From Trypanosoma brucei (lineage: Eukaryota), in the NCBI GenBank assembly GCA_000002445.1, contig CM000207.1, positions 576,001 through 640,000 of the forward strand: DNA of 64,000 nucleotides, given 5' to 3'. Below are positions 13,801 through 56,645 of this stretch, piece after piece (within the stretch, counting starts at the first letter, position 1; the number at the start of each line of letters is the position of its first letter). The notes beneath the pieces are model-generated. The model searched no databases. It saw only the letters and a list, made by a program, of their open reading frames with translations, and was not told the DNA's origin. Made by a program: the position numbers and the translations under genes.

Positions 13801-14942
13801 TCATTCAGATACCTAGAATCTCCAGGTGGGCCCGCAACACTTTTTTCTGTTTCCACACTTCGATCCAGAGCATCAGAACAATCCTCCTGACCAACCCCTG
13901 GTCCCCGCATGCTTCCCTCAACGAAAAAAGGAGGAGTTTCCCTAGAAGTGGAGCCGTCACCAGTATCACACCTCCTCCCGTCAACGTATGATGGAATGAT
14001 GCCCTTATTACCTCCACTCACCGCGGAGTCCGAGGGAAGCATCACACGCTCGTCGGTGCGTGGAGCTTCCCCGTAGAAGAACGTTGGAGGAGATGGATTT
14101 ATTGTGCCCCCAAAACACTGTTGGTGGTGACTATTGTGGTGAAAATTGTGATAGACCTGGTGTGGTTGATGATAACGATGTTGCTGCTGCTGCTGGTGCT
14201 CTCTATAGCGGTTCTGCTCATCCATCTGCTGACGAATTTGGTGGTATATGTAGGCGTCATCGTTGGTGGAAGGACCAGTTGCTATGGCAGTTGGGGCTGA
14301 TCGTGACAGGTAGCCGTAATGACGCGGGGTTGATCGCCACTGGTGGTTGTGACCATTGCCACTTGTACCTAACATGGCCGGCGCCAAAAGCGGTGGAACC
14401 AACCCTCCACAACCTGGTGGGGGCATACCAACAAATGGAGGAACCTGATGGAACGGACCCACCCGCTGCTGAGAAGGATTTTGCACACAATTTTCCATTG
14501 ACATATCCACAAACGAAGTTGCATCTGGAAGGGGAAGCGGTTGTGGCGGCTGCGGCACCGGGCGCGGACCTTCCCCAAATTGACCCCACCGATGTACCTG
14601 CTGACCAGATACCATTGAGGACTCAGCGGACCCCGGCGATGCGGCAACGCACGGGGCCCTTTGAGCAATTTTCATTAGCCATGGGCGCTGCGATTGCGAT
14701 GGTTGTTTCTGTTGCGGTTGATGTTTCTGAAAACTTGGTATGGGACCGCCTATAAGTGCCGGGGGTCCACTACGACACGTTGGTGCCTCCACGAAGACTC
14801 TCGAACAGTCTCCATTTCCCGCTGATGCGTCCATAACACACTGAAGGCCGTCCGCGCTACTACTACTAAGCTGACTCTTCGATGAAACATCACATGATAA
14901 CGGGGCAGTTACACCCTTCTCCACGTAAGTGTAGTTTAGCAT
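10806..14942 (-). CDS. Large hypothetical protein (1378 aa) with Q/H-rich low-complexity tracts
   Basis: An uninterrupted 4.1 kb minus-strand ORF. It contains HQQQQHRYHQPHQVYHNFHHNSHHQQ and a long S/T/P/G-rich linker. The C-terminal portion (GVGWLTWGAAERPDQRSLVLEQVRDLAAQDPRYSVLL...YYAPRPPRHE) looks globular. I could not confidently assign a family (a regulatory or RNA-binding role is speculative). Confidence 0.65.
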   Translation of the reverse strand: MLNYTYVEKGVTAPLSCDVSSKSQLSSSSADGLQCVMDASAGNGDCSRVFVEAPTCRSGPPALIGGPIPSFQKHQPQQKQPSQSQRPWLMKIAQRAPCVAASPGSAESSMVSGQQVHRWGQFGEGPRPVPQPPQPLPLPDATSFVDMSMENCVQNPSQQRVGPFHQVPPFVGMPPPGCGGLVPPLLAPAMLGTSGNGHNHQWRSTPRHYGYLSRSAPTAIATGPSTNDDAYIYHQIRQQMDEQNRYREHQQQQQHRYHQPHQVYHNFHHNSHHQQCFGGTINPSPPTFFYGEAPRTDERVMLPSDSAVSGGNKGIIPSYVDGRRCDTGDGSTSRETPPFFVEGSMRGPGVGQEDCSDALDRSVETEKSVAGPPGDSRYLNERRNSHGKNSNDGSRENNRTFGGTKHCSLDEGGHRGLPLHPNDAGKRCNQNACQYKSDGLFPLGENGGQGESYASTKINTTEKTNKLPGKVDEQGAAGCEVTAGQKTSQTDQGKPKAREGNLCISCNQELKPPALTMLGDHGHDTEMLHNQRQPYGEPTNLFGHTPTGVSPTCGPPAAEALGTKHHQGCSHKSPTAHRASQWEPVPPKDLQHYRSNIAVGIAYQGGYSCTESCASGERSGPVLLAGGGGHETVRSVAGNYMWKSPTSQHRRQPLEGSPTQMSGLTCGDGGGRATAQTPSSASPWSHARAPGHARHLPLHPPMYEQHGALEDLFDEGGADIPFEPQVYGNIVSFVCAVSPILLATRLVESPTASPKSATPGNEERTPSRGGHPPTFVEPLIPLRCIWESLDMPFACAVRLAQPVPLTPMRFPQETVVYSPFLSGFRLRFLESSATYAELKAMQSRSGDDSCNAFQRRPASGRTSPTCVCTGESGQGDTDHEPPLACTYPAITKSATGKDCATPRGSVETASTVRDGSEEMDDSSGVGWLTWGAAERPDQRSLVLEQVRDLAAQDPRYSVLLTANVTELDYQSWIAVLWRPVFDQNHCAKHNCGSFIVYYAPRPPRHEIAPLSQSSSALECMNKSWMSPVFRADRAALRWDMWAPSRREVSVAEQTTAQTPKSASPGCTAPLSPALSPSVAAGGIAAGGSAVVSNFEKPVDLNGSSADAAAAREASITSGVAHETTHTSPSLSFVDSTTNTASLGSHCGPTLQSADQPFYARIPVVGIIPNRCRADVWFMPCFRDGVPDPGHRRDIGATGVPPCGYYCAPLFLLTAALQLMSWNAVEEYERQLAKKVALHGGGGGDSSGLGTEGSASASVNGGGPPSGNAVAAGVSSFRAAQDEKPSGVKLLIDAAKYYRQYRESAHTDAQAGTPTPKLNLSGQEAGEVNGRCRTISPSVASNISSTPFTEPGAVVGGLPDFYQWAQFDGPLLKFAERYV

Positions 14943-21430: not shown

Positions 21431-22105
21431 TTAAATAGCAACCATGATACCTCTTTCGTGACGCAGTAAAGCCAGCTTATCATCCAATATCTGAGCAAAT
21501 CCCAATAAAGAAGGCTTCACCCCTGCGATGCGGTGGACAGGAACCAACCCAAAGAAACAGTTGTCACGCAGCGCCCTTTCAGCGACACCAACCTGGAACT
21601 TTCTGCAGAAATATCGGTATTCCTTCTGTGTTCCAGCTTCGATTTTAATTACTTCCCTCCATACTTCGCCGTAATTAAACGCATCCGGTGGCATGTGTAA
21701 CGGAATTGACCTTAAAATATTATTTATTTCTCTCCTTCTTTTTTCCAAACCTTCAAGGCTGTCGCCCGATGGTGCAAGTGGATAGTTGAAATAGCGCCAA
21801 ACCAACAACGCGGTCCGTTCATGAGGGATGTGCGGAACGCCACCTTCTTCCGCGCCTGCGTTTTCATGCAACTGAGGGAATGGCACCTCCATAAGAGCTG
21901 CGTTGGGGCAGACTTTACGAAGCCACTCATTAACGTCAAAACGAGAGCCTTCCCTGTAGCAACACAAAACAGCGCCGCTTTCACCAACAAAGAGAAAAAT
22001 ACAACGCTTCCACCATAAAAGGCGATAAACAAATACAGTACAACGAACAACATCACAAGAAAACACGCAGAAAACCATGATAAAGCAAAAAACCAAATAC
22101 AACAA
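21431..22105 (-). CDS. Hypothetical protein; probable true start is an internal Met near 21892 (MEVPFPQLHE...)
   Basis: The ORF N-terminus (MLYLVFCFIMVFCVFSC...) is a translation of a pyrimidine-rich tract and is unlikely to be coding. The distal 150 aa (..RSIPLHMPPDAFNYGEVWREVIKIEAGTQKEYRYFCRKFQVGVAERALRDNCFFGLVPVHR..) looks protein-like. I recognise no family. Confidence 0.4.
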   Translation of the reverse strand: MLYLVFCFIMVFCVFSCDVVRCTVFVYRLLWWKRCIFLFVGESGAVLCCYREGSRFDVNEWLRKVCPNAALMEVPFPQLHENAGAEEGGVPHIPHERTALLVWRYFNYPLAPSGDSLEGLEKRRREINNILRSIPLHMPPDAFNYGEVWREVIKIEAGTQKEYRYFCRKFQVGVAERALRDNCFFGLVPVHRIAGVKPSLLGFAQILDDKLALLRHERGIMVAI

Positions 22106-23651
22106 TTTATATGTACAATTAAACTAAAATATTGTGCTTATAAGCAAAACGCCTACTACAATTGACGGAAAAAAAAAGAAAAAAACCATAACAAATATAT
22201 AAAACAATAGAACACACAATACATAAGTAATACGGCTCAACACCCCATTCACACTTCATATGGAGTTTATGAACACCACTAATGATATATTCATGACAGT
22301 TAATAGTTGGAAATAGAAAATGCAATGGCATATGACTTACACTCAGTGCATTGATAATTCCAATAACTCTACATTTCATACGGCACCTCATACCACTCCT
22401 TCAAATGAATACAAACATCTCCCATGTTCGGGTTAAAATGTAACGCAATACGCTAAGGGGGATTACCTTCATTTGTGAAACTAATAATATCATCACACCA
22501 TCATATTACTGAAATGAAACTATTTTTTTGTACAAAACATCCTCAACGACAAAACGAATTATATAGTGCAACACTATTGTTAGTCAGCACACACATACAC
22601 AACACACAAGTAACAACATAAATATATTCCTTCCTTTTGTCTAACACACTAATAAGAAGAAAAATATGAGAAATAGTGAATTTGACAAGAGAACATGTAT
22701 ATATACATTTATTTATTTATTTATTCATATACAGGTGATGAAGGGATTGACACAGTAACCCTCAGTATAATAACACAGCAACACGAAAGTAACATCGTAT
22801 CGCCATATTCCCTTACGATCAATATTAACAAAAACATATTATAAAACAAACACATGGAGGCCGTAACACCTGCCTGATTTATCCAAATACAACATATCAA
22901 CACATAATACGCTACGTCTGCACGATATATACATATACATATACTCGAACAAAGAAAAAATTGACACTTCACATAACTACTGATATGCGAATCATCACTT
23001 ACCGTCCGTACCATGTTACAGAAAAGAAAAAGGTTATTAATCAAAAAATAAAAAGAAAGGATATATAAAGTGATTACAAAGCTGACAATATAGAATATAT
23101 GCACAAGAAGGATCTACACACTTCACAATAATGCACAACATAAACACATACACAACGCATATAAGCATACAGCTAAGGGGGAAAAACATATAAGGATACA
23201 AACTCCATATAATTAGAGAAAGGTAGCAGAGAGAAAGCCTTAACACATAACTCAAGTATATTATATATGAAAGTTCAGCAGGTAAGTATTATTAATGAGA
23301 GAATAAGAAATGGAAGTGTATAGAGCAATACAAGGTAATATATATTCAAAATTAATGGAAATGAAACCAAATACTACTCATTAAGTGGTTCAACAATTTT
23401 CAAAATAAATAGTTGATTATTTCAAGAGAGTAACTGTAGTTGCTTCATGCAAACAGAAACATTTCACAAAGATTATAAAAACATTAAATACAAAAATATT
23501 ACGGTACAAAGGAAGGTACTTAAAGACATTGCGAAGAAATACAGTAGCAGAAAAAGACAATGTGACAATAGGGAAACATGACACACAACAGCACATCACT
23601 GCACACACCTCCATAAATTCTCATGCACATCATTAAACAAAAAGTATACAC

Positions 23652-24938
23652 TCACTCATCAGCTGCTGGAGTTTCCTGCTGATGGCTGGTAATGCTTAAA
23701 TGCTCCTCACCATTTGATGGTACCGCTGCCACTTCTGCTGCCTCCACATTAGATACGGGTGAGGTAACCTTTTCACGGAGAGACATTACAGTAATATACT
23801 TCTCATGACCTGCAAAACAGCAAAAGTATAAAAGAATAAGCAATACAGCAAGAAGAATAAATATTATAACAACAGCAGCACCGGCACCACCGCCACTTCC
23901 CTCACCATCGGAAGCTGTAGATGGCACAGTCTTATCTGATGCTTCATTACTTCCATTAGATATTTCATCAGCTATTGTATTTTCATCAGCTGTTGCATTT
24001 TCATCAGCTGTTGTATTTTCATCAGCTGTTGTATTTTCATCAGCTGTTGTATTTTCATCAGCTGTTGTATTTTCATCAACTGTTGTATTTTCATCAACTG
24101 TTGCATTTTCATCAACTGTTGTATTTTCATCAGCTGTTGTATTTTCATCAACTGTTGTATTTTCATCAACTGTTGTATTTTCATCAGCTGTTGTATTTTC
24201 GCTGTGAGGGGAAGCAGGTGGAAGCGGAGTTGGTACTGCAGAGGCTTCACAGAGAACCATGAAAAAGCGTGTACTTCTACCCCTAGTGTTCGTAAACATA
24301 GATATATTTCCAAAGTCGTCATCATCATCAAACCATGTGAAGCGACCAGAGGAATCCAGTTTAGCAATTACGTTTAATCTCCCGTACGCAGGATAATTTT
24401 CGAAAAAGGATGGGTAGTCATTCATACTACCAGCTCCTGTTACTTCATAGTAAGACCCACGCCAGAATGCAACACCATTATCGTCAGGAGTTGCCGGAGC
24501 AAACAATCCTGTGTTCCATCGATAGACACAATTTAATGATGAAGCGAGGTCACCTACTTTGCATCTGTCCTTTTCCTCATGTACTGAACTCGCACTGTAC
24601 TTGGCATCACCACCAAGGTAAGCATATAAATACCCCAATTCATTTTTCGGTTTTAATAGTTTATATATTAAACTGTTTGTGGCCTCAGAGTGGTCAGTAG
24701 CGAGGTTCATACCTTCAGCACGGCACACACGCTCAGAATTAACGTAATCCACATTATATACACCATTATTTTTAAACACTTCATGAGGATATATGGCGTA
24801 ACTCTTAGCTGCTGTAGTCACGGGACCCCCTCCAGAGCTGGCAGCCTGCAGTGGACGTAAAATACATTGCAATAACATCAGTATACCACACAGAGTTGTA
24901 ATCCGAGAGAAGTTTGATGGCACCATGCGGATTTCCAT
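23652..24938 (-). CDS. Type-I surface membrane glycoprotein with 13 tandem ENTT[A/V]D hexapeptide repeats
   Basis: N-terminal signal-like segment CGILMLLQCILRPLQAASS. A ~200 aa Cys-containing ectodomain (CRAEGMNLATDHSEATNSLIYKLL...WNTGLF...FWRGSYYE...FMVLCE) is weakly reminiscent of a C-type-lectin-like fold. Then come 13 repeats of ENTTAD/ENTTVD (each an N-x-T sequon), the TM helix AAVVIIFILLAVLLILLYFCCFAG and a ~60 aa cytoplasmic tail. Confidence 0.7.
   Translation of the reverse strand: MEIRMVPSNFSRITTLCGILMLLQCILRPLQAASSGGGPVTTAAKSYAIYPHEVFKNNGVYNVDYVNSERVCRAEGMNLATDHSEATNSLIYKLLKPKNELGYLYAYLGGDAKYSASSVHEEKDRCKVGDLASSLNCVYRWNTGLFAPATPDDNGVAFWRGSYYEVTGAGSMNDYPSFFENYPAYGRLNVIAKLDSSGRFTWFDDDDDFGNISMFTNTRGRSTRFFMVLCEASAVPTPLPPASPHSENTTADENTTVDENTTVDENTTADENTTVDENATVDENTTVDENTTADENTTADENTTADENTTADENATADENTIADEISNGSNEASDKTVPSTASDGEGSGGGAGAAVVIIFILLAVLLILLYFCCFAGHEKYITVMSLREKVTSPVSNVEAAEVAAVPSNGEEHLSITSHQQETPAADE
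23963..24200 (-). repeat. Coding 18-bp tandem repeat (~13 units, ttcatcagctgttgtatt on the plus strand) encoding the ENTT[A/V]D hexapeptides
   Basis: Direct inspection shows near-identical 18-mers with a/g and c/t variants at fixed positions. The repeat also generates the spurious antisense and alternate-frame ORFs 23972..24367(-) and 23975..24262(+). Confidence 0.9.
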
Positions 24939-45674: not shown

Positions 45675-46613
45675 TTAGCGCTTTTTACCTATTGGTGGTA
45701 GTTTCCCCTCAGAAGTAGGCGGTGGAACGGGGGTGGGTTGTACTCCCGATTGCGTTCCGGGCATGTGCGAGGCGGCGAATTTGGGCTTTGCGGAATCCAG
45801 CATTGATTCGGGGAGTGGAGGGGGTGGGGGAATAGTTTTCCCGTACGATCGCACGTAGTAACCGAGGTCCTTATCAAAGGACACACCGCACGACGCACAC
45901 TTTTTGCTTGCTTTTGGTCCCTCAAAAATAGAGGTATTTCCGCGGCCGTGTTTACAGGACTTTACGATCTGCTCTTGCTCCTTCAAATGACGAACCATTT
46001 GCCTCTCATACTTCTGTCTCAACTTTCCTTCCACCCTCTCGCGCTCCTCACGCAGAATCACCTGCTCTGGACTATTATAGAAATTCTCGTAAGCTATTCG
46101 CTCCGCTTCCTCGCGCTCTTCCCGCTCTTTTCTCCACAACTCTTCCCACGCATCGCTCTCCTCTGCCACCACCCCGCGCCGGTACCGCACCTCAGTTCCC
46201 ATTACAAATGCGCATGCGGCACGGACGGTGTTTTCTTGCTCCCTCTTCCATTCCTCGAAAGCCCGCAAGTACTCCCCATACGCGGCCTTCTCCTCTACCT
46301 CCCGCCGCCACTCTGCACGGCCTTCTTCGCGCAGGGCCTCCTCAAGGGCATATCGACGTTGATCCTCGATTGCCTCTCTGTCCTTCAGACGTTCAATAAA
46401 ATACAACAGCTCCCTTCCCCTCGCCAACTTCTTGCATTTCTCGACGTTACGCGTCGCTAGTGCTTCAAAAAAAAATAGTGCTTGCTCGACGAGGCGCTCA
46501 CGCGCGTCGGCCTCCATACGCTCTACATCCGACAACTCATCAGCCATTTTCATCCTTAAATACTCCCGCAACGCATCCTCCCTGATGGCACACAGCTCCT
46601 GTGGCTCAAACAT
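45675..46613 (-). CDS. Coiled-coil protein with a C-terminal Cys cluster and a proline-rich tail
   Basis: Highly charged heptad-like region (EEALREEGRAEWRREVEEKAAYGEYLRAFEEWKREQ...EREEREEAERIAYE), followed by CKHGRGNTSIFEGPKASKKCASCG and PPPPPLP. The ORF in the track extends to 46979, but its first ~120 codons translate a polypyrimidine tract (FFPGFFSFP). I call the start at MFEPQELC (46613). Confidence 0.5.
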   Translation of the reverse strand: MFEPQELCAIREDALREYLRMKMADELSDVERMEADARERLVEQALFFFEALATRNVEKCKKLARGRELLYFIERLKDREAIEDQRRYALEEALREEGRAEWRREVEEKAAYGEYLRAFEEWKREQENTVRAACAFVMGTEVRYRRGVVAEESDAWEELWRKEREEREEAERIAYENFYNSPEQVILREERERVEGKLRQKYERQMVRHLKEQEQIVKSCKHGRGNTSIFEGPKASKKCASCGVSFDKDLGYYVRSYGKTIPPPPPLPESMLDSAKPKFAASHMPGTQSGVQPTPVPPPTSEGKLPPIGKKR

Positions 46614-46789
46614 GCGGCGAACCGCCAGGCCAGGATGTGAGGTCTTGAGTTTAGAATGGCTCCCCGACAACGAATGAACCGCAGCAGTGGACACCAGAAG
46701 CAGCGGAGCAGAGGCGACAAGGGTGACATCCGGGCCCGAAGGCACACCCACATTAGAGCGCACGACCACATTTTGCGAATCACGGCCAG

Positions 46790-46910
46790 GGGGAAAAACC
46801 GACATGAGGCACCTGCACCTCACTAGCTTTGGAAACGAAAAAAAACCGGGAAAAAAACGTGAAAGCAGCACCAGGAAAAGAAATGAGGGACCTACAAAAA
46901 AAACAGAACC
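46790..46910 (-). promoter_or_regulatory. Polypyrimidine tract / candidate trans-splice acceptor region upstream of the 45675..46613 gene
   Basis: The plus strand is purine-rich (ggaaaaaaccg...gaaaaaaaaccgggaaaaaaacgtgaaagc...caaaaaaaacag), so the minus strand is pyrimidine-rich. It lies just 5-prime of the gene on the transcribed strand. Confidence 0.4.
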
Positions 46911-47741
46911 AATGATGTACAAAGACGTCACAGGTCCTTCCCATTCAGCCAGCTGGGCAAATCGAGCACCTGGGTGCAATACAGTTCACCTGCTTCCAAT
47001 GCTGAAAAAATCGCACCAGCGCGCCCAGCCGTAAGGCTCAAAAATCCCTCCCTCTTTCCGGAAACCACGGGTGAAAACCAGCAACAACGTACTTTGTCCC
47101 ACAAATGAACTAAACCCCGGTCATTCATTCACAAATATACACAAAAGTGAATGAAGCGAAGCCTGCGAACACGCTACGCGTTTGCGCCATAGGCAACCGC
47201 ACATATTACGCATCAACCTTTCCTTCGTACCCAGTCGCTGCGCCAACTCAACATGAAGTGGCCCTGACATCGCTGTTTGGTGGGTGCGAAAAATTGGTGC
47301 TCAGCACCCACAACACAAATGAATGAGGGAACAATAAATAAAAATAAAAATGCACAATACGCGGCAGAACACCATACAGCACAGTCGGACGCAACATTTC
47401 CTCCACCAGAGTCAACGGCACTTCCTCGCATACACTCACCTTAGTGGGCATTAACCACAGTAAGAACAGCATAAAGAGAGGGGAAAGCAACGAGCAGATC
47501 CTCGATTCGAGTAAACACGAGAAGGGTGAAGAAGGGGTGAGCTCACCTGGGAGACATTGCATTAATACACTGCTAGCGAGAGGACGTGTCATCAGAGCAA
47601 CAAAATCAGTTGCTTATAAGTAAGAAGAGGAAAACACCCCCGGACGCGTCTCTGTATGGTTAGTGCCAAGTTTCTGACAGCATCCTGAGCAAATGACGAG
47701 GCAATATTGCGTGGCACAACTTTCCTACCAGCGCCGTGCCA

Positions 47742-49148
47742 TCAAACGATTTTGTCAATCGGCGGGGCGGAAGCCCGATCGCAGCGGAAAACCTCTATCA
47801 GGTCGTTCAACAGTTCCAACCTTCTCATCTGCGTGCCCCCTTCCAGGGTGTAGAGCCGAACACCATTTGAGATGAATGCATCCGACGAAAGAAGCCCTGC
47901 GGGGTCATTTCGCAAATAATCCTCCATCGTTCTGATGGTGCCACCCAACATGGTCGCTGGCGCCTTACCTCGCAACGCTTCATATGGCATCGTCACCACG
48001 TGGGAGGTTGTTGCGTTAACGAGGAGTTGATGAAAGGCATGCCGACAGAGCTCGGATAATGCAAGTGCATCGCAACCATCGGCAACGAATTTTAGTTGCC
48101 GGTTAGAAACCGTGGGCACATCAGTCGACATTAGTTGCGACGCACCCAGAGCGCAGTAGTACTCTCGACTCTTCGTCGCCACATCACAAAACACTTTCAT
48201 TGAGTCCTGAACCTTACCGTTAAACGACAACCATATGCCCGTGTTGAAATCTACAAGGCATTCGTGAAAGTTCTGCACACAAGGAGCAGCTTCACTAACG
48301 TTAATACTGGCAATACTTTGGTAAATGCTATTTGCAAAGGAAGCATTGCCACAAAATAAGGCCAGCGCTGCAAACTGGTGAAGGTGCAACATGCGCCGGA
48401 GCAGCGCGTAGGATCCCATGTCGTCGCCGTCGGCGTTTCCCTCCACCGCAATGAGTTCATTGTATATTCGAAGCGCTTCTGAATACTGTTCTACTTGATA
48501 GTGGCTCACAACCAATGCACGCTGCACTCGCTTGATGCGAGCTACCCAAACTGCAGATGCATATTTTCCCAGATTCTCTCTGCAATCCCGTAAGAGAGCG
48601 TAGAGTCGCTGCTGAGAATCCATCTTCGTGCCGATATACAACGGAATAATGGCGCTAATAAAGCGAAGGGAAAACGGAACAGTAGACTCACTCGTTTTCG
48701 GGTCAATATACCGCTCACTGTTCAGGTCACCTAAAGATTCTACCAGTTTCTTCGCCACGTTGTAGCGCTGCATGTGAAAATTCGCAGTTACCTGCACAAG
48801 AATGAACTGCAACCTCCTTGACAATCCCTCAGCCGTTTCTTCCGTTGCCGCAGCACTCAGTCGCTCTGCGAGCTCCGCAACGGCGCTCCAATTTCCGTCG
48901 GCAGCCAAACACCGCAGACCCGCCTCGTTATGAGGCACACTGTCCAAACCGCGGTCGCAGCGTACTGAGTCCTCCGCTACGGTGCCTAGGAATGACCGTG
49001 CGGACTGCAACGCTGACGGCTGTGGCATCCTGCACTTTTTCCACCACACCACTAATTGTCTCCCCTTCTTTGTTTTATCCCCTATTACCCTCCGGCACAA
49101 AGCTCTTCTGGAACGCTCTTTTGTACCGCCAGTGTTGTACAGTGCCAA
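47742..49148 (-). CDS. Hypothetical helical (TPR-like?) protein, 468 aa
   Basis: Long minus-strand ORF with predicted helical-repeat character. I recognise no family with confidence. Confidence 0.5.
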   Translation of the reverse strand: MALYNTGGTKERSRRALCRRVIGDKTKKGRQLVVWWKKCRMPQPSALQSARSFLGTVAEDSVRCDRGLDSVPHNEAGLRCLAADGNWSAVAELAERLSAAATEETAEGLSRRLQFILVQVTANFHMQRYNVAKKLVESLGDLNSERYIDPKTSESTVPFSLRFISAIIPLYIGTKMDSQQRLYALLRDCRENLGKYASAVWVARIKRVQRALVVSHYQVEQYSEALRIYNELIAVEGNADGDDMGSYALLRRMLHLHQFAALALFCGNASFANSIYQSIASINVSEAAPCVQNFHECLVDFNTGIWLSFNGKVQDSMKVFCDVATKSREYYCALGASQLMSTDVPTVSNRQLKFVADGCDALALSELCRHAFHQLLVNATTSHVVTMPYEALRGKAPATMLGGTIRTMEDYLRNDPAGLLSSDAFISNGVRLYTLEGGTQMRRLELLNDLIEVFRCDRASAPPIDKIV

Positions 49149-49621: not shown

Positions 49622-50827
49622 TCACCGCTGGCTGGATGCAACAGTACACTTCACAAACGCTCTTATATTGCTTGTTGGCGAGTAACAGTGCTCCACAACG
49701 GGCACCATGCTGTTGCCCTCGTCATCTCGTTCTGTAGGCCACTTTGAACCAAATTTTAAGAGAAGCTTCAGAAACTCAACAACACTCCTCTTCCGTAAGC
49801 CAAGTACACACCACATTGCGGGAGTGCGTCCCGCATTGTCCTTGTCGTCCACGTGTTGATGGAGCCCGTAGTGCTGGAAGAAATCCAATAGCAGTTCCTT
49901 GCAGCCAAGGCGTGCCGCGTGATGGAGTGCAGTGGCTCCGTGGCTGTCAGGGCGCCACACAACCTTCTTGCCCAAGGTGTGAACAAGTAGCTGCAGGACG
50001 GCGGTGAATCCTGCTTCAGCGGCGGGGTAGAGGGCCTCAACAGCGACCTCATGTGATGCTAATCCGTGGAGTTGCATAAAATACCGAAGGGAATCCGCGT
50101 GTCCGTACAGGGCAGCACGCTGAACACAACGCACGGCGTTTTCCTCCGCAGGCCCCAACGCACAGAAAGGATGTGAAGTATCCAACCAATGCAAAACAGG
50201 AACTGAACCGTACACGAACGCCGTTTCGTACACACTGAGCGACTGCCCCAAAGGCTCAAGGTCCGGATGCGTGTGTTGTCCTAATATGGCGGCCGCTCCA
50301 AAGCGTCGCACCAGGGCAGCAATAAATTCAACATGACCCTTTTTTGCAGCAATATGCGAAAGGTAATTCCCTTCACCATCAGGCAGGGTGAAGGTGATTA
50401 TGTCCAACGGAACTTGTTCGAACGCACATGAGGGCCCTAGAGCATAATTCGTTACATGTACACCCCGAGGCAAAAGAATCCCACCTTCAGCCATACCAAG
50501 TAGAGGGATGCTTCCAAGTTCTGCTGCGAAGTGAGCCACCGTGTAGTTTTCCAACGCCCGGTAGCCTCCGGGAAGCTGTGCTTCACTAAGTTTTTTATTG
50601 AGCAACTGCACCTCATACAAGTGATAGCGTCCGGCGCACTGATTAGTCGCCGTTGCCGGTGTCACACCACCCTGCCCAGTAGTGGCGACTGCCTCAATGA
50701 GCAGAGAGCGCTCATACCATCGATGTAGCACGTCAGCAAAGCAAGAAGCTGAGTTATTTTGCAATGTCTCCTCGACGAAACTGCGGCACCGCTGTGGCTG
50801 GCAAAGTTGGACAATCGTACGTCTCAT
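49622..50827 (-). CDS. Ankyrin-repeat protein
   Basis: Ankyrin-type repeats are visible: NYLSHIAAKKGHVEFIAALV, GATALHHAARLGCKELLLDFF and GRTPAMWCVLGLRKRSVVEFLKLLLKFG. Confidence 0.7.
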   Translation of the reverse strand: MRRTIVQLCQPQRCRSFVEETLQNNSASCFADVLHRWYERSLLIEAVATTGQGGVTPATATNQCAGRYHLYEVQLLNKKLSEAQLPGGYRALENYTVAHFAAELGSIPLLGMAEGGILLPRGVHVTNYALGPSCAFEQVPLDIITFTLPDGEGNYLSHIAAKKGHVEFIAALVRRFGAAAILGQHTHPDLEPLGQSLSVYETAFVYGSVPVLHWLDTSHPFCALGPAEENAVRCVQRAALYGHADSLRYFMQLHGLASHEVAVEALYPAAEAGFTAVLQLLVHTLGKKVVWRPDSHGATALHHAARLGCKELLLDFFQHYGLHQHVDDKDNAGRTPAMWCVLGLRKRSVVEFLKLLLKFGSKWPTERDDEGNSMVPVVEHCYSPTSNIRAFVKCTVASSQR

Positions 50828-51366: not shown

Positions 51367-54300
51367 CTACGAATGGGGTTGTGTGGTGATGGTAAGCGAA
51401 CTCACATACTGCTTCTCCCTGCTAAATATATCAGGTAGTGACTCCACCTCAGCACTGCAACTGCTACTGAATAGGCGGTGCAACAGAAGGTCAGCCGCAG
51501 TCGCTCTCCCTTCAGGTTGGAGGCAGAAACACATGCGTAAGAAATCACAGAGGACAGGGTTGCTTGTAAGTCCATCTACGTAGTAATCAACATCTGTCAT
51601 ATCTGCTAGCATGTGGGGAGTCTCCATAAATAAGGGTGGGCAGTCAAAGAGCTCAGCTGCTACACAACCAACTGACCAAATATCGCATGGGCTGCAGTGA
51701 TCCTCACCACGGTACACCTCAGGCGCCATGTACCGCAACGTGCCCTGTACGTCCTCGCTTCCAACCCCTTGGCGGGCCGTTCCAAAATCAGTGATTTTCA
51801 CAACGTCGCCCTTTATCAGAATATTCTGCGGCTTCACATCACGGTGTGCCACCCCACGCGCGTGCAAATAGGTCAGTGCTGTGAGCAGCTGCCGAAGGAC
51901 CTTGATAACCGTCAGGTCTGGTGGCTTCTGACTTCGGCCGTATATGATGTCGCCCAGTGAACAACAACAAAGCTCCATGAAGAGGTTCACACTGTTTTCT
52001 TTCCGCTCACAGTGAAAGTAGTGAACAATATTTGGGTGATTCAGGCTACACATTATCTTAATTTCATTAAGTAAGGCGTTAATAGACTCCTCTAAGTCCT
52101 CCGTAAAGTAAAACATCTTCACTGCCATCTTCCCCCCTGTCAAATCACTGGTGGCCTCATATACGGCACCGAAAGAACCTCGACCAAGCAGCACACCTTT
52201 CGTCCACGGTGAGTCTTGCCTCAGTGTCAGAATACGTTCTCGCTCCTCCTGCGCGGTAGCTGCATTCTTCCGCAGTGACACTGCAGTGCCGATCGCCATC
52301 AATACCTTACGGACTTCAGTACTCGATATGGGGGTGTTTATAACGTACTGAAACCCCTCTAACGCAAGGCGTACACCCGGTTCAGAGATGGGGACAACAA
52401 TAATATCGTAACTGAGGGAATGTACTAAATCCTGCACCGAGTTTAGCCATCCACGATCGCATACAATCACATCGATATCACTTGGTGATGACTGCAAGCG
52501 CTTCTCTAACTCGCATCGCTCCCGGACACTTGTCAGAGAAACAAACATCGTCCTGAGCAGGATCATAGAAATATTGTGTTGGTCCACAAGGTTTGTTATC
52601 AGCGTCAGCACATTCACAGTGCAATTCACGATGGCACGGGTTTGATCGATAACGTAGCGTTCATTCAGTGCGTCAGCTGGTCGGAAGGTTGCGTCATCAA
52701 TGTCCTCCAGTGCGGCTGTGATTTGGCAAGGAAATCGGAATACAACGGTGCCGTCGTCCTCGCGAATACTTCCACAGGTACTGCGCAAGTGGGGCAGCAA
52801 TTTCTCGCGTAACTCGCTTATCTGGGCTGTGCTTGGCGCTGCCTGGGCAACAGGAGTTGCGACAATCTGTAGAGCAAAGGTATTCCTGGAAGAGTTCAAA
52901 ATCTGCAACCTCAAATGGCATGGGACACGCAGACTATTCAGCAACGTGGCGACAGCTTCCGGGATACATGGATGGAGACAAAGCGTGCCGGGAAACAGCG
53001 AATCAACGCTCGTCTTGTGATCAAGTGGAGACAAGCGGAGCATCTGCCCCAGAAGCTGTTCTGAAGATGTCCACTCCCATTCTGCTAGCATCCCTCGCGC
53101 CAACTCCTCCACTTGCTTCCCGTACCCATATTCCAAGAATGACTGAAGAGGACCAATAACGGACAATCCTCTTGGCGTAACGGCTTTTCCTTCTAAGATC
53201 TCAGATAACGATAAGTTTACTTCCGACACCACGTAGTCGCGAATGTAGGTGCGGTACTCCCCCAAATTGTCCTTTGCATTAGCACAAATAAGAATCCTCC
53301 CAATTAAGGACCCCTCCTGGTTCAATATGGGGACAGCGACAGTGAACAATGTGACGGGAACTGTGGCAAAGGCACGCAGCTTCAGTTTGAGTACCTCACC
53401 TGAAAACACCTGGAGAGGTGCTAAGTCTCGCTCAATGTCCCCTGTTGGGGTTATAACCAAGTCGGAGAGCGGTTTTCCGACACATCCAGACTCGAGAAAC
53501 CCTGTCACAACCTCGGCGGCCATGTTCCACCGGGTTATACGGTATTTGTCATCGAAGCCAATCATCACGACCTGGGCGTCAACGTGCTTTCCTTCAATGT
53601 AACCCAATGCGTTGCCGTAGGGGATTGTGTAGTAGCCGTTCTTTGTATTATGTCCACGAGTAACCTGCGGAACCGCCGCCCCGGCCGACGGCCCCGTTGT
53701 ACTGAGGTCTCCTTCAGACGATGCGGAAGAAAGCAGCACGGTGTACATGCGCTCTTCAAGAATCCAGGTGTGGAGCACCTTCAGTGCCTTCGCCGATGTG
53801 ACAAAGAGGTAAAGGAATCCACAACTAACAACACTCACAAGGAGAAACGCAGTCAACCCTACCAGTAACCCCACGGTGGTTGAGGGTGACAGTGTCGGCA
53901 GCGTCACCAACACAACGAGGGTGAAGACAACGGAAGCCGCAAAAATCGCAATAACAAGTATAAATGCAACAGAGCTGTATGAAACTGCCTCCCTGAGTAG
54001 AACTGACATGAAAGGAAACTCAACATAAGCACATCGCATCCGCTGTGCGACCTCCTCTGCTAAACGCATCACCGGTACCCTCCAGTTCAATGATTGAGGG
54101 CCAACCACAACAATGTCACCCAAAAAAAGATGGCCCATTCGCTTAATCCGTTCATAAATTTCCCAGTCTATACTTCGTTTCTCATCGTTTGTACGGTAAG
54201 CGGAGGCAGGTACCCTGCACAGAACGCTGACTATAGTTTGAATACTGTGGTACGTAGCGAAGGCCTGCTTTGCCTCTTCACACTTGCCATCCGTGTACAC

Positions 54301-54546
54301 ACGCTCAAGTGAGGTAAAGAAATTTTCAACCATATCTGGTAGGGAAAGAATGCTCTCTTGCACATACTGTCTGTCGTCATCTGACGCTAAAATGGGGTGA
54401 GGCAACATCTTTGCTATTCGATCACATGTTGGTCCCATTAAGAAAGGTGTAAACGCAGTGGAGATTAACAACGGAGAAAAAAAACGAACAGGGCAAAGGC
54501 AATGAGAGAAAAACCAACTACGTGTTAAGCAATATTGGGGAGGCAA
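51367..54546 (-). CDS. Membrane-anchored serine/threonine protein kinase (STE-group-like catalytic domain), 1059 aa, with PAS-like and receiver-like regions
   Basis: Kinase motifs: GRGSFGAVYEA...AVK (GxGxxG and the VAIK-type lysine), HRDVKPQNILI, DFGTA, YMAPEV, DIWSVGC. Two hydrophobic helices sit near residues 190-260 (AFILVIAIFAASVVFTLVVLVTL; GLLVGLTAFLLVSVVSCGFLYLFV). There is a PAS-like stretch (HVDAQVVMIGFDDKYRITRWNMAAEVVTGF) and a receiver-like D-x-V-x-D block (DIDVIVCDRGW...YDIIVVPIS). Confidence 0.85.
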   Translation of the reverse strand: MPPQYCLTRSWFFSHCLCPVRFFSPLLISTAFTPFLMGPTCDRIAKMLPHPILASDDDRQYVQESILSLPDMVENFFTSLERVYTDGKCEEAKQAFATYHSIQTIVSVLCRVPASAYRTNDEKRSIDWEIYERIKRMGHLFLGDIVVVGPQSLNWRVPVMRLAEEVAQRMRCAYVEFPFMSVLLREAVSYSSVAFILVIAIFAASVVFTLVVLVTLPTLSPSTTVGLLVGLTAFLLVSVVSCGFLYLFVTSAKALKVLHTWILEERMYTVLLSSASSEGDLSTTGPSAGAAVPQVTRGHNTKNGYYTIPYGNALGYIEGKHVDAQVVMIGFDDKYRITRWNMAAEVVTGFLESGCVGKPLSDLVITPTGDIERDLAPLQVFSGEVLKLKLRAFATVPVTLFTVAVPILNQEGSLIGRILICANAKDNLGEYRTYIRDYVVSEVNLSLSEILEGKAVTPRGLSVIGPLQSFLEYGYGKQVEELARGMLAEWEWTSSEQLLGQMLRLSPLDHKTSVDSLFPGTLCLHPCIPEAVATLLNSLRVPCHLRLQILNSSRNTFALQIVATPVAQAAPSTAQISELREKLLPHLRSTCGSIREDDGTVVFRFPCQITAALEDIDDATFRPADALNERYVIDQTRAIVNCTVNVLTLITNLVDQHNISMILLRTMFVSLTSVRERCELEKRLQSSPSDIDVIVCDRGWLNSVQDLVHSLSYDIIVVPISEPGVRLALEGFQYVINTPISSTEVRKVLMAIGTAVSLRKNAATAQEERERILTLRQDSPWTKGVLLGRGSFGAVYEATSDLTGGKMAVKMFYFTEDLEESINALLNEIKIMCSLNHPNIVHYFHCERKENSVNLFMELCCCSLGDIIYGRSQKPPDLTVIKVLRQLLTALTYLHARGVAHRDVKPQNILIKGDVVKITDFGTARQGVGSEDVQGTLRYMAPEVYRGEDHCSPCDIWSVGCVAAELFDCPPLFMETPHMLADMTDVDYYVDGLTSNPVLCDFLRMCFCLQPEGRATAADLLLHRLFSSSCSAEVESLPDIFSREKQYVSSLTITTQPHS

Positions 54547-54944: not shown

Positions 54945-56645
54945 CTATTGCTTTTCTGTTCCCCCCCTGCTTTTGCAACTAGACTTCCGTGAAGAAGATC
55001 TCCGCTTCCTACGGCTATGGCTACGGCTACGGCTACGACTCTTTCTCTTTCTTCTCGGCTTGCCCTTTCGGCGTTTCTTCCTCGAAGGAGAACCCAGGCG
55101 CGTGCCTCTCGAACAGAGCGTAGGTCGCCGGCGGCCCATATGAGGGAACGTAGATGAAAGCTCGGGTGGTATAGGAGGACGCAGGAAGCCCATTGTCCCA
55201 AAGGAGAACCGACGTAAGTCCAGTGATGTAGGATTTACAATAGGAGGCAGGTTAGTACTGCCATTACCAAGCACATCAGCGCTTATCAGCCCATATTCTT
55301 CGCGGCGATCCACGTAGTGGTGGGTAAGTCTGTCGGAGCACGAACCGATATTGTATGTCTTATCATCGTAGCGAACAGGCAAGGTGTCTGTGTATTTGGG
55401 TACGACGGCACGCAGTGCGTCCTCGGTTACTTCATCATCATCAGAACTGTCTCCTTCTGCGACGAAAAGGTTAACCGCAGACCGGCCAACACTATATTGG
55501 CGTCTTCCCTCTCGTTTCACCCGTGGTATATTGCGAAGCAGATCATCTGGTGCAAGGCTGTCGGTAAATGGAGTTGGACTCTTCTCGCGCAGGTGATCAG
55601 CATCGTCTATGTAGTCGTCAAAAGAATCCATGCTCTCACTATCATGGTCAGCGGCTGAATGGCTGAGAAAGCGAAGGAAGTCAAACGTGTAGTTGGCAGG
55701 ATCCACAAGCCCTCGGGATTGGAGAGCCTTTACGACACCCTTGACGTCCTGCTGCACCAGAGTTTCTCCAAGTCGAACGAGCTCCCAAGCACTCTCAGAA
55801 CAGTTTTTCCTTTTGCGTACCATCAGCACAATGCATGAATTATGCCCCACAGTCGTCACTTGCACGGGAACAATTGCTAAGGGAAGTCTTTCATTTGCCT
55901 TTTTTACCGCATAATACACTCCTGTCGCTTCGCAGAGGGGCACCTCTTTCGTAAATAAAGTGGAGCACAAAGAAAAACCGGCGCACATCGACACTTTCTT
56001 CAAGTTTGCAACGACAGTATCACCAGCCACCACCTTCGGACCACCAGCAGGTTCGAGGAAGTTGTCTGAAACTTTACAAGCAGTGTCAACAGAAACCACA
56101 TCGTGCGCCCTATGCAGGAGGCCTTTATCATTCGTCATCCTTCGCCCGACGCCAACATAATCAATCTGTCTCCCATGTTCTCTAAAAAGACAAGCTGTTG
56201 TGTCGAAAAATAATAATGGTTTACCGTCCTCAGGCAAGGGACGATAAAGGGTTATCTCAAGCTCGGTGACGTGACTGCTGATGAGTGAAGATTCGCCTTC
56301 TCCAAGAACTGGAACTGGAGATATCGCCCCTTCGGGGGAGTTAGTTCCTGACTCTGACGAAGTCATCCCCGCTTTGCTCACTTTCCTGACCGAGCCGCGT
56401 CGCTTTCCACGCCTCGACCCGGTCCGAGAGCGACGAGACGAACGACGAGACGAGCGGCGTCGCCTACCCTTTGATTTACTTCTCCGGCCACCTCTACGTT
56501 TTGTTTTAGATTTACTTTTTGATCTCCTCCGCCTCTGGCGCGGGGAACCCGCTCTCGAACCTTTTCTCGTTGGTGGCCCAGTGGGAATCTTTGTCCCACT
56601 CAGCGTCCCGGCTAAGCTCCGATCCTCGTCACTACCAAGATCCAT
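54945..56645 (-). CDS. Protein with arginine/serine-rich (RS) domains at both termini, 566 aa
   Basis: N-terminus RRRRSKSKSKTKRRGGRRSKSKGRRRRSSRRSSRRSRTGSRRGKRRGS and C-terminus RKKRRKGKPRRKRKSRSRSRSHSRRKRRSSSRKSS flank an ~400 aa acidic/globular core. I identified no RRM. Confidence 0.6.
   Translation of the reverse strand: MDLGSDEDRSLAGTLSGTKIPTGPPTRKGSRAGSPRQRRRRSKSKSKTKRRGGRRSKSKGRRRRSSRRSSRRSRTGSRRGKRRGSVRKVSKAGMTSSESGTNSPEGAISPVPVLGEGESSLISSHVTELEITLYRPLPEDGKPLLFFDTTACLFREHGRQIDYVGVGRRMTNDKGLLHRAHDVVSVDTACKVSDNFLEPAGGPKVVAGDTVVANLKKVSMCAGFSLCSTLFTKEVPLCEATGVYYAVKKANERLPLAIVPVQVTTVGHNSCIVLMVRKRKNCSESAWELVRLGETLVQQDVKGVVKALQSRGLVDPANYTFDFLRFLSHSAADHDSESMDSFDDYIDDADHLREKSPTPFTDSLAPDDLLRNIPRVKREGRRQYSVGRSAVNLFVAEGDSSDDDEVTEDALRAVVPKYTDTLPVRYDDKTYNIGSCSDRLTHHYVDRREEYGLISADVLGNGSTNLPPIVNPTSLDLRRFSFGTMGFLRPPIPPELSSTFPHMGRRRPTLCSRGTRLGSPSRKKRRKGKPRRKRKSRSRSRSHSRRKRRSSSRKSSCKSRGGTEKQ

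What the first reader, a model, noticed from the sequence alone, without database searches (positions are those of the whole stretch)
51367..54546. Kinase with a sensor-like architecture: TM helices + PAS-like + receiver-like block + STE-type catalytic domain
Eukaryotic protein kinases that combine membrane anchoring with PAS and a receiver-like D-x-D region are uncommon. The arrangement is reminiscent of two-component logic fused to a Ser/Thr kinase. The kinase motifs are canonical, which argues that it is active. The N-terminal modules are assigned only from short motif resemblance.
Basis: partly seen in the sequence, partly recalled or inferred. Interest (0 to 1): 0.5.

Follow-up and report, generated by a model that had tools for sequence, protein, structure and literature searches.

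The report
Known trypanosome kinase DAK (Tb927.9.3120)

Summary
The ORF is real. Its product is identical to T. b. brucei TREU927 XP_803617.1, which is gene Tb927.9.3120. Jensen et al. 2021 (PMC8519429) named it DAK, "dual ancestor kinase". The true CDS is window 51367-54408 (-), 1013 aa. The first 46 codons of the reported ORF are a translated polypyrimidine/splice-acceptor tract.

- Two TM helices form a hairpin.
- There is an STE/STE11 kinase with all catalytic motifs invariant.

Together these make a complete hybrid histidine-kinase cassette.

The histidine-kinase chemistry is gone in T. brucei. There is no phospho-acceptor His and there are no N/G1/G2 ATP boxes. The receiver keeps only the acceptor Asp. 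The most likely role of the cassette is as a dimerising, PAS-gated regulatory scaffold for the active kinase. That role is inferred, not shown.

Small additions from this work: about ten divergent environmental relatives with the same architecture, one of them on a kinetoplastid-like contig, and no relative found in 185,579 bacterial and archaeal genomes.

Verdict: already known. Interest is modest.

The parts
51367..54408 (-). Coding sequence of Tb927.9.3120 (DAK), 1013 aa plus stop. It starts at the ATG at 54408 (ORF residue 47).
   Evidence: Identical to TREU927 XP_803617.1 over the annotated 1023 aa. The conserved start is MLPHPILA. The published kinase numbering of 737-980 fits only this start. 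The splice-acceptor context also supports it.
54409..54546 (-). Not coding: a polypyrimidine tract, the likely trans-splice acceptor and the 5' UTR. It was included in the reported ORF only because the frame stays open back to a TTG. The GenBank model starts at the ATG at 54438.
   Evidence: Read directly from the sequence: a pyrimidine run, with no AG until about 54415/54411. There is no conservation upstream of MLPHP in orthologues.
54034..54381 (-). N-terminal four-helix bundle (DAK residues 10-125). Topology places it on the cytosolic side.
53905..53979 (-). Transmembrane helix 1 (ORF 190-214, DAK 144-168).
   Evidence: Hydropathy 3.14. AF2 helix at 147-173. Published TMHMM call.
53797..53874 (-). 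Transmembrane helix 2 (ORF 225-250, DAK 179-204). With TM1 it forms a hairpin with a loop of about 10 residues, so both termini lie on the same side of the membrane.
   Evidence: Hydropathy 2.44. AF2 helix at 177-232. Published TMHMM call.
53278..53571 (-). PAS domain (ORF 326-423).
53095..53265 (-). DHp-like helical hairpin (ORF 428-484). Ser441, or Arg436 in the other possible register, sits where the phospho-acceptor His would be.
52720..53076 (-). CA-like (GHKL-like) alpha/beta domain (ORF 491-609), without N, G1 or G2 boxes.
52321..52617 (-). Receiver-like domain (ORF 644-742). The acceptor-position Asp697 (DAK D651) is at 52456-52458.
52216..52323 (-). Long helix (ORF 742-777) joining the receiver-like domain to the kinase N-lobe. 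It ends in the invariant motif ERERILTLRQDSPWTKG.
   Evidence: AF2 helix at cassette residues 445-480. 30% invariant columns, second only to the kinase.
51469..52200 (-). STE/STE11-type protein kinase domain (ORF 783-1026, DAK 737-980) with canonical catalytic motifs.
   Evidence: Pkinase E 1e-53. Motif positions. Best PDB hits are TAO3 and MAP3K2. Parsons 2005 Table S1 lists it as STE/STE11.

Best explanation
The gene is Tb927.9.3120, DAK or 'dual ancestor kinase', of Trypanosoma brucei brucei TREU927, chromosome 9.

**Architecture (shown here).** From N to C terminus the protein has:
- a cytosolic four-helix bundle;
- a two-helix membrane hairpin with no luminal domain;
- a low-complexity linker;
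- a PAS domain;
- a DHp-like helical pair;
- a CA-like domain;
- a receiver-like domain;
- a long conserved helix;
- an STE11-type Ser/Thr kinase with every catalytic residue intact.

**Loss of histidine-kinase chemistry (shown from sequence).** There is no acceptor His in T. brucei. No ATP-binding N/G1/G2 boxes are present in any family member. The receiver keeps the acceptor-position Asp but lacks the acidic Mg2+ pair and the conserved Lys.

**Mechanism (inferred).** The protein sits in an endomembrane as a dimer held by the DHp-like bundle. The cytosolic PAS domain takes the input, either a small ligand or a protein partner. The decayed CA and receiver domains, together with the long helix, pass a conformational change to the kinase. 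No phosphoryl group is passed. The kinase then phosphorylates downstream targets, possibly an STE7/MAPK module.

The conservation gradient fits this reading. PAS, the receiver and the linker helix are clearly more constrained than DHp, CA and the four-helix bundle.
For: **Identity.**
- The product is 100% identical to the TREU927 protein.
- The orthologue accessions A0A0S4IKM7 and Q4Q920 are the ones the DAK paper names.
- Kinase-domain and TM numbering match the paper.

**Architecture.**
- Pfam detects PAS and Pkinase.
- AF2 models were built for the cassette and for the N-terminal part.
- Foldseek aligns 350-380 colinear columns with phytochromes (PAS-PAS-HKRD) and LOV/PAS histidine kinases at E about 1e-11.
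- Published HHpred gives over 95% probability for DHp, CA and REC.

**Degeneracy.**
- No HisKA, HATPase_c or Response_reg hit at E<=1 in 12 orthologues.
- Residue mapping supports the losses listed above.

**Active kinase.** The catalytic motifs are invariant.

**Constraint.** Mean majority fraction per domain is: kinase 0.78, linker helix 0.74, PAS 0.70, REC 0.67, CA 0.54, four-helix bundle 0.54, DHp 0.52.

**Membrane location.** ER in bloodstream forms, from a C-terminal tag.

**Family-wide architecture.** About ten divergent environmental relatives all end in Pkinase with canonical HRD/DFG/APE, and most keep hydrophobic segments upstream of PAS.
Against: - No functional data support any step of the mechanism.
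- RNAi gives no phenotype in T. brucei. The L. mexicana null mutant is viable as a promastigote.
- The cassette model has only moderate confidence (mean pLDDT 68, pTM 0.41). Domain orientations, and the apparent lack of helix alpha4 in the receiver, are therefore uncertain.
- Dimerisation was not modelled.
- The invariance of the receiver Asp across kinetoplastids is not explained by a purely structural role.
- Localisation is reported differently in Leishmania: lysosome and flagellum.
Confidence: 0.65

Rival explanations
1. A residual phosphorelay still operates. The receiver-like Asp (DAK D651) is phosphorylated, either by a small phosphodonor such as acetyl phosphate or by an unrecognised kinase, and this switches the STE11-type kinase on or off. 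This would resemble Ssk1 controlling Ssk2 in yeast.
For: - The Asp is invariant in all 19 kinetoplastid orthologues and sits exactly at the end of beta3.
- The receiver and the following helix are among the most conserved non-kinase parts.
- Bodo and related bodonids keep more canonical residues: His at the H-box position, Thr at the end of beta4, and Lys before the beta5 Pro.
- Two distant relatives, P0166 and P0169, keep Asp plus a canonical K-P.
Against: - In T. brucei the Mg2+-binding acidic pair is Thr-Asn and the Lys position is Asn/Thr.
- The CA domain has no ATP-binding boxes in any member.
- The Asp is Ala, Ser or Glu in six of the ten divergent relatives (P0140, P0142, P0143, P0147, P0148, P0153).
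- The published kinome lists no two-component histidine kinase, only PDK-type GHKL kinases. I know of no HPt protein in trypanosomatids; that is my own knowledge, not a test.
Confidence: 0.12
2. The cassette is an evolutionary relic. It now only anchors and dimerises a constitutively active kinase and has no sensing role. Any regulation comes from expression level or activation-loop phosphorylation.
For: - DHp, CA and the four-helix bundle are weakly conserved, 0.52-0.54.
- There is no knock-down or knock-out phenotype.
- All histidine-kinase catalytic motifs are lost.
Against: - The PAS core is strongly conserved: 23% invariant columns, including AAEx(x)TGFLExxCxGKPL.
- The full domain order has been kept from trypanosomes to bodonids and to divergent environmental lineages. 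That is hard to reconcile with a mere tether.
Confidence: 0.2
3. It is a classical receptor kinase that senses a luminal or extracellular ligand through a domain on the far side of the membrane.
For: - It is a membrane protein with a C-terminal kinase.
Against: - There are two TM helices with a loop of about 10 residues and no signal peptide-like N-terminus. This puts the bundle on the same side as the kinase.
- The tagged protein is in the ER, not at the surface.
Confidence: 0.03

Closest known systems
DAK / Tb927.9.3120 (Jensen, Vaney, Flaspohler, Coppens, Parsons 2021, PLoS One, PMC8519429)
   Same: It is this gene. The two TMDs, the PAS domain, the DHp-CA-REC cassette found by HHpred, the C-terminal ePK at aa 737-980, the mutated His, the retained Asp, and the conservation through to Bodo saltans are all described there.
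   Different: Nothing differs in substance. Added here:
- the N-terminal four-helix bundle model;
- a residue-by-residue account of the receiver active site, and of the bodonids keeping more canonical residues;
- the per-domain conservation gradient;
- about ten divergent environmental relatives;
- the absence of a detectable relative in bacterial and archaeal genomes.
Plant ethylene receptor ETR1 together with the Raf-like MAP3K CTR1
   Different: In plants these are two polypeptides; here there is one. ETR1 senses through its TM/GAF region and binds copper and ethylene, whereas DAK has a cytosolic PAS domain. CTR1 is a TKL/Raf-like kinase, not STE.
Plant phytochromes (PAS-PAS-HKRD output module)
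   Same: They are the best Foldseek matches, colinear over about 370 columns at E 1e-11, and phytochrome B PAS is hit by sequence profile. They carry a histidine-kinase-related domain that has lost the acceptor His (established knowledge).
   Different: Phytochromes are soluble, carry a bilin photosensory core, and have neither a receiver nor an ePK domain.
Moss PAS-containing MAP3K PpANR / CTR1-like (PDB 5iu1)
   Different: It has no membrane anchor and no DHp-CA-REC cassette, and its kinase is Raf-like.
Fungal group X hybrid histidine kinases (Chk1 / Mak1 type) and bacterial HK-ePK fusions
   Same: One chain combines an ePK-like domain with a hybrid histidine-kinase cassette. The DAK paper notes that such fusions exist, mostly in bacteria and some in fungi. 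The fungal family name is from my own knowledge.
   Different: In the fungal proteins the kinase-like domain is N-terminal and the histidine kinase is catalytically intact and feeds a His-Asp relay. In DAK the order is reversed and the histidine-kinase chemistry is lost.

Membership tests
DAK orthologous group (Tb927.9.3120) | Sequence identity to the T. brucei gene product, with the same orthologues as published | tested here: met
   The product shows 0 differences to TREU927 XP_803617.1. The orthologue clusters contain UniProt A0A0S4IKM7 and Q4Q920, which the paper names.
DAK orthologous group (Tb927.9.3120) | Domain coordinates: ePK at aa 737-980, TMDs at 146-161 and 181-203 | tested here: met
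   Pkinase at ORF 783-1026, minus 46, gives 737-980. The hydrophobic segments at ORF 190-214 and 225-250 correspond to DAK 144-168 and 179-204.
Eukaryotic protein kinase, STE group / STE11 family | ePK fold with a complete catalytic motif set (G-loop, VAIK Lys, alphaC Glu, HRDxKxxN, DFG, APE) | tested here: met
   Pkinase E 1e-53. All motifs are present and invariant.
Eukaryotic protein kinase, STE group / STE11 family | Closest affinity to STE kinases and classification as STE11 | tested here: inconclusive
   The best PDB hits are TAO3 (STE20) at 6e-32 and MAP3K2 (STE11) at 2e-28, but PLK3 and CDK2 follow closely. Published classifications are STE/STE11 and STE. No phylogeny was run here.
Eukaryotic protein kinase, STE group / STE11 family | Acts as a MAP3K on an STE7-type kinase | not testable with these tools
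   This needs biochemistry or phosphoproteomics.
PAS domain | Match to PAS family profiles and the PAS fold | tested here: met
Two-component (hybrid) histidine kinase | DHp helical hairpin followed by a CA (GHKL) domain, colinear with the sensor domain | tested here: met
Two-component (hybrid) histidine kinase | Phospho-acceptor His in the H box | tested here: not met
   In T. brucei the position is Ser441 (register from alignment to a real H box), or Arg436 in the alternative register. Bodonids have His at the first position. The paper also states that the His is mutated.
Two-component (hybrid) histidine kinase | ATP-binding N, G1, F and G2 boxes; Pfam HisKA and HATPase_c | tested here: not met
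   No HisKA or HATPase_c hit at E<=1 in 12 orthologues or at E<=0.001 in 7 distant relatives. No Gly-rich boxes appear in the alignment.
Response-regulator receiver domain | Flavodoxin-like (beta-alpha)5 fold | tested here: met
Response-regulator receiver domain | Acceptor Asp at the end of beta3 | tested here: met
   Asp697 (DAK D651) follows strand VIVC. It is invariant in 19 orthologues. It is not kept in six of the ten divergent relatives.
Response-regulator receiver domain | Acidic Mg2+-binding pair after beta1, Thr/Ser at the end of beta4, and Lys at the end of beta5 | tested here: not met
   After beta1 the residues are Ile-Thr-Asn. The end of beta4 is Ser in T. brucei but hydrophobic in most orthologues. 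The beta5 motif is Y-V-I-N-T-P, whereas other orthologues have R or K at the Asn position. There is no Pfam Response_reg hit.
Receptor kinase with an extracytoplasmic sensor | [quoted passage not shown] | tested here: not met
   The topology is a hairpin with a loop of about 10 residues and no signal peptide.

The most novel reading that the evidence does not exclude
The DAK family may be an old, Euglenozoa-restricted class of membrane kinases in which the receiver Asp is still a working phospho-switch. This would apply at least in free-living bodonids, which keep His, Asp, Thr and Lys at the canonical positions. A remnant of His-Asp-type signalling would then directly gate a MAP3K-like kinase in a lineage thought to lack two-component signalling. 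Parasitic trypanosomes would be caught part-way through losing it.
Probability: 0.07. Interest if true: 0.7.

Novelty: already known. Interest (0 to 1): 0.3.

Why it matters
Trypanosomatids have almost no recognisable receptors. How they sense host and vector environments is still an open question. DAK is one of only ten T. brucei kinases with membrane spans, and the only one carrying a whole histidine-kinase cassette. That makes it a plausible, though unproven, entry point for signal sensing.

The architecture is already in the literature, so this finding adds no new kind of object. Its practical value lies in a sharper set of testable residues: D651, the PAS core, and the REC-kinase helix. 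It also shows that the family reaches into uncultured kinetoplastid-like lineages. Finally, the origin of the cassette, bacterial or eukaryotic, cannot be settled by sequence.

Tried and rejected
1. **RDK1.** My first guess from memory was RDK1, another membrane STE kinase. I rejected it: RDK1 is Tb927.11.14070 and has a sensor/cyclase-like architecture.
2. **HMM-level detection of the cassette.** Pfam and NCBIfam found only PAS and kinase. A family profile against PDB sequences found only PAS domains. The DHp, CA and REC assignments therefore rest on fold comparison and on published HHpred.
3. **hhalign against canonical sequences.** The result was not significant (probability under 1%), although the register agreed for the Asp and the beta5 Pro. 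I do not use it as evidence.
4. **N-terminal domain profile against the PDB.** Nothing found.
5. **Foldseek against AFDB50.** The library was not available.
6. **Bacterial or archaeal donor.** A pattern-plus-tblastn scan of 185,579 genomes found no relative. The 1.84-billion-protein profile search found nothing outside the family beyond PAS-only or PAS-plus-first-DHp-helix matches. The published 'bacterial incursion' idea could therefore be neither supported nor refuted.
7. **TM helix in the first 36 ORF residues.** Rejected, because this is a translated polypyrimidine tract.
8. **Third hydrophobic segment at ORF 390-408.** Rejected as a TM helix, because it is a PAS beta-strand pair.
Full report
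**1. Observation**

The window carries an open frame at 51367..54546 on the minus strand: 1059 codons from a TTG. Sixteen of the eighteen ORFs of at least 250 aa lie on that strand, and GC skew is negative throughout. This is the pattern of one trypanosomatid polycistronic unit.

The product is 100% identical to 'protein kinase, putative' of Trypanosoma brucei. Over the annotated 1023 residues it shows no difference from T. b. brucei TREU927 XP_803617.1 / Q38FL3. It shows one difference from T. b. gambiense and two from T. equiperdum.

The frame is open for 46 codons upstream of the real start. That stretch is a pyrimidine-rich tract. The first AG dinucleotides after it lie at about 54415/54411, immediately before the ATG at 54408. 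All orthologues begin at the equivalent MLPHPILA. Only this start reproduces the published numbering. The CDS is therefore 51367-54408, 1013 aa.

**2.

- **Kinase.** Pfam Pkinase matches ORF 783-1026 at E 1e-53. GRGSFGAV, AVK, the alphaC Glu, HRDVKPQN, DFG and APE are present and invariant in 19 orthologues.
- **Kinase class.** The best solved relatives are TAO3, MAP3K2 and MST1. The TriTryp kinome lists the gene as STE/STE11 under its old identifier Tb09.160.1780.
- **Membrane segments.** Two hydrophobic segments lie at ORF 190-214 and 225-250, separated by about ten residues. They agree with published TMHMM calls and with two long helices in the AF2 model.
- **PAS.** PF00989 is borderline on the whole ORF (21.4 bits against a cut-off of 22.6). 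It passes on the excised region (23.0 bits) and is found in 12 of 12 orthologues, best E 4e-8. A profile of the family hits the PAS domain of the moss MAP3K ANR (5iu1, E 6e-6) and phytochrome B PAS domains.
- **Receiver-like block.** The 'D-x-D' block is DIDVIVCD at ORF 690-697.

**3. What lies between PAS and kinase**

No HMM library sees anything there. I built an AF2 model of ORF 298-778 with 12 orthologues. It has mean pLDDT 68. Its secondary structure reads, in order: PAS; two long helices; an alpha/beta domain; a beta-alpha-beta-alpha-beta-alpha-beta-loop-beta unit; and a 36-residue helix.

- Histidine-kinase DHp-CA modules: GacS 12.3, ShkA hybrid kinase 11.7, KdpD 11.7, NtrB CA 11.5 over 110 residues at 2.7 A, and ETR1 CA 11.4.

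Foldseek aligns 350-380 colinear columns with plant phytochromes (PAS-PAS-HKRD) and with PAS/LOV histidine kinases (YF1, SB2F1, WalK, VicK, EL346) at E about 1e-11. The region is thus a complete hybrid histidine-kinase cassette, PAS-DHp-CA-REC.

**4. This is already published**

Jensen et al. 2021 (PMC8519429) describe Tb927.9.3120 with:
- TMDs and a PAS domain;
- HHpred matches above 95% to DHp, catalytic and receiver domains;
- the ePK at aa 737-980;
- a mutated His and a retained receiver Asp;
- ER localisation of a C-terminally tagged copy in bloodstream forms;
- about twofold higher translation in procyclics;
- no RNAi phenotype;
- conservation in T. cruzi, L. major (Q4Q920) and Bodo saltans (A0A0S4IKM7).

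They name it DAK, 'dual ancestor kinase'. Those two UniProt accessions are in my orthologue clusters, and the coordinates match. Identity is therefore settled.

No later paper in the searchable library mentions the gene or the name. The L. mexicana orthologue LmxM.26.1730 is listed as STE and as dispensable in promastigotes. It was seen in the lysosome and flagellum with an N-terminal tag.

**5. State of the ancestral chemistry**

*DHp.* Aligning the family profile to a genuine PAS histidine kinase puts its H-box THELRSPL over VVSEVNLSL. The acceptor His then corresponds to Ser441. In the only other plausible register it is Arg436. Bodonids have His at the first position (DYHIHRI). Leishmania and others have His at the second. 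Neither column is conserved.

*CA.* No N, G1 or G2 box is present in any member, bodonids and distant relatives included.

*Receiver.* The DSSP string laid over the sequence shows the following:
- Strand beta1 is VNVLTL, followed by Ile-Thr-Asn where the acidic pair should be.
- Strand beta3 is VIVC, followed directly by Asp697 (DAK D651). This Asp is invariant in 19 orthologues.
- Strand beta4 is IVVPIS. The final position is not conserved.
- Strand beta5 is YVINTP. The Lys position is Asn in T. brucei, but Arg in most orthologues and Lys in Bodo.

In T. brucei the receiver therefore retains one of its five canonical residues with certainty. I read the cassette as a pseudo-histidine kinase with a pseudo- or near-pseudo-receiver.

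**6. N-terminal part**

An AF2 model of DAK 1-254 has pLDDT 80.5 and pTM 0.66. It gives a four-helix bundle (residues 10-125), a short helix, and two long helices that are the TM hairpin.

With two TM helices and no signal peptide, the bundle lies on the same side of the membrane as the kinase. There is no luminal domain, so a classical receptor-kinase reading is excluded on topology.

**7. Family and origin**

I searched a profile of the cassette against 1.84 billion representative proteins. It finds the kinetoplastid orthologues and about ten divergent lineages: P0139, P0140, P0142, P0143, P0144, P0147, P0148, P0153, P0166 and P0169. All come from metagenomes and none has a taxon name.
- The seven scanned against Pfam all end in a Pkinase domain.
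- All ten have canonical HRD/DFG/APE motifs, and most keep hydrophobic segments upstream of PAS.
- Six of the ten have Ala, Ser or Glu at the acceptor-Asp position. Two (P0166, P0169) keep Asp plus a canonical Lys-Pro.

One relative lies on a 45.6-kb contig whose genes are all on one strand and are eukaryotic (Sec24, RPB10, GCN5L1). Its Sec24 is 44% identical to T. cruzi Sec24C, against 31-33% to fungal, plant and animal Sec24. That contig therefore comes from a divergent kinetoplastid-like organism.

Outside the family, only PAS or PAS-plus-first-DHp-helix matches appear. A scan of 185,579 bacterial and archaeal genomes found no relative. The published suggestion of a bacterial origin can thus be neither confirmed nor refuted by sequence. 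The best sequence and Foldseek matches being plant PAS and phytochrome modules is a caution against assuming a bacterial donor.

**8. Mechanism**

Shown here: the architecture, the topology, the intact ePK catalytic set, the loss of the histidine-kinase motifs, and a conservation gradient. The gradient is kinase 0.78 > REC-kinase helix 0.74 > PAS 0.70 > REC 0.67 > CA 0.54 = four-helix bundle 0.54 > DHp 0.52.

Inferred:
- The protein is an endomembrane dimer held by the DHp-like bundle.
- The cytosolic PAS domain is the input.
- The receiver-like domain and the invariant helix (ERERILTLRQDSPWTKG) form the kinase-proximal switch.
- Signalling is conformational, not by phosphotransfer.
- The output is Ser/Thr phosphorylation, possibly at the top of a MAPK module.

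I put about 0.65 on this package. Identity and architecture are near certain; the mechanistic steps are not.

Rivals:
- A still-phosphorylatable Asp (0.12). It is favoured by the invariance of the Asp and by the more canonical bodonid sequences. It is disfavoured by the missing Mg2+ ligands and Lys, and by the lack of any ATP-binding CA domain.
- A relic that only tethers and dimerises the kinase (0.2).
- A luminal-ligand receptor (0.03).

**9. Verdict**

The object is the published DAK. Novelty is 'already known'. Interest is about 0.3: the protein is unusual and functionally uncharacterised, but nothing here would surprise a specialist who has read the 2021 paper.

Noticed in passing
window 54409-54546 (-): The first 46 codons of the reported ORF translate a polypyrimidine tract, the likely trans-splice acceptor region. 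The GenBank model (1023 aa, ATG at 54438) also starts upstream of the first AG that follows the tract. The conserved start is the ATG at 54408.
   Followed up: yes
window 54945-56645 (-): The upstream neighbour is a 566-aa ORF with long Arg/Ser/Lys-rich tails at both ends (RRRRSKSKSKTKRR..., ...RKRKSRSRSRSHSRRKRR). It has no Pfam hit.
   Followed up: partly
window 49622-50827 (-): The downstream neighbour is a 401-aa ankyrin-repeat protein (Ank_2, E 1e-12). The next two ORFs (47742-49148 and 45675-46979) have no Pfam hit.
   Followed up: partly
window 22001-24000: GC content drops to 0.334, against about 0.5 elsewhere in the window. I did not examine this region.
   Followed up: no
window 1-64000: Sixteen of the eighteen ORFs of at least 250 aa are on the minus strand. 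The two plus-strand ORFs overlap larger minus-strand ORFs. GC skew is negative throughout and there are no tRNA genes. The whole window is one directional gene cluster of T. b. brucei TREU927 chromosome 9.
   Followed up: partly
P0017-P0019 (bodonid orthologues), alignment A1 columns 951-1130: Bodonid orthologues carry an acidic/Pro-rich insertion of about 110 residues between beta4 and beta5 of the receiver-like domain. In Bodo saltans (P0019) the insertion appears twice in tandem. This is either an assembly artefact or a real repeat.
   Followed up: no
P0202 (2473 aa, metagenomic), residues 1332-1417: A much larger protein carries the family's distinctive DHp/CA junction (WEYTSA..., FPATV...) without an obvious match to the rest of the cassette. 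It may be a differently built relative.
   Followed up: no
L001 (JGI metagenome 3300066132, 45.6-kb contig), gene at 9911-14131: A distant DAK relative (P0280, 1406 aa) sits in a one-strand cluster with Sec24, RPB10, GCN5L1 and a CFAP65/HYDIN-like flagellar protein. Its Sec24 is 44% identical to the T. cruzi protein. The contig comes from an uncultured kinetoplastid-like eukaryote.
   Followed up: partly
Literature: PMC8519429 versus PMC7902614: The reported localisations differ. In T. brucei bloodstream forms the protein is in the ER (C-terminal tag, strong promoter). In L. mexicana promastigotes it is in the lysosome and flagellum (N-terminal tag). The bar-seq read fractions for the L. mexicana null look higher in the last dozen samples of the table, but I did not identify the column headers.
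   Followed up: no
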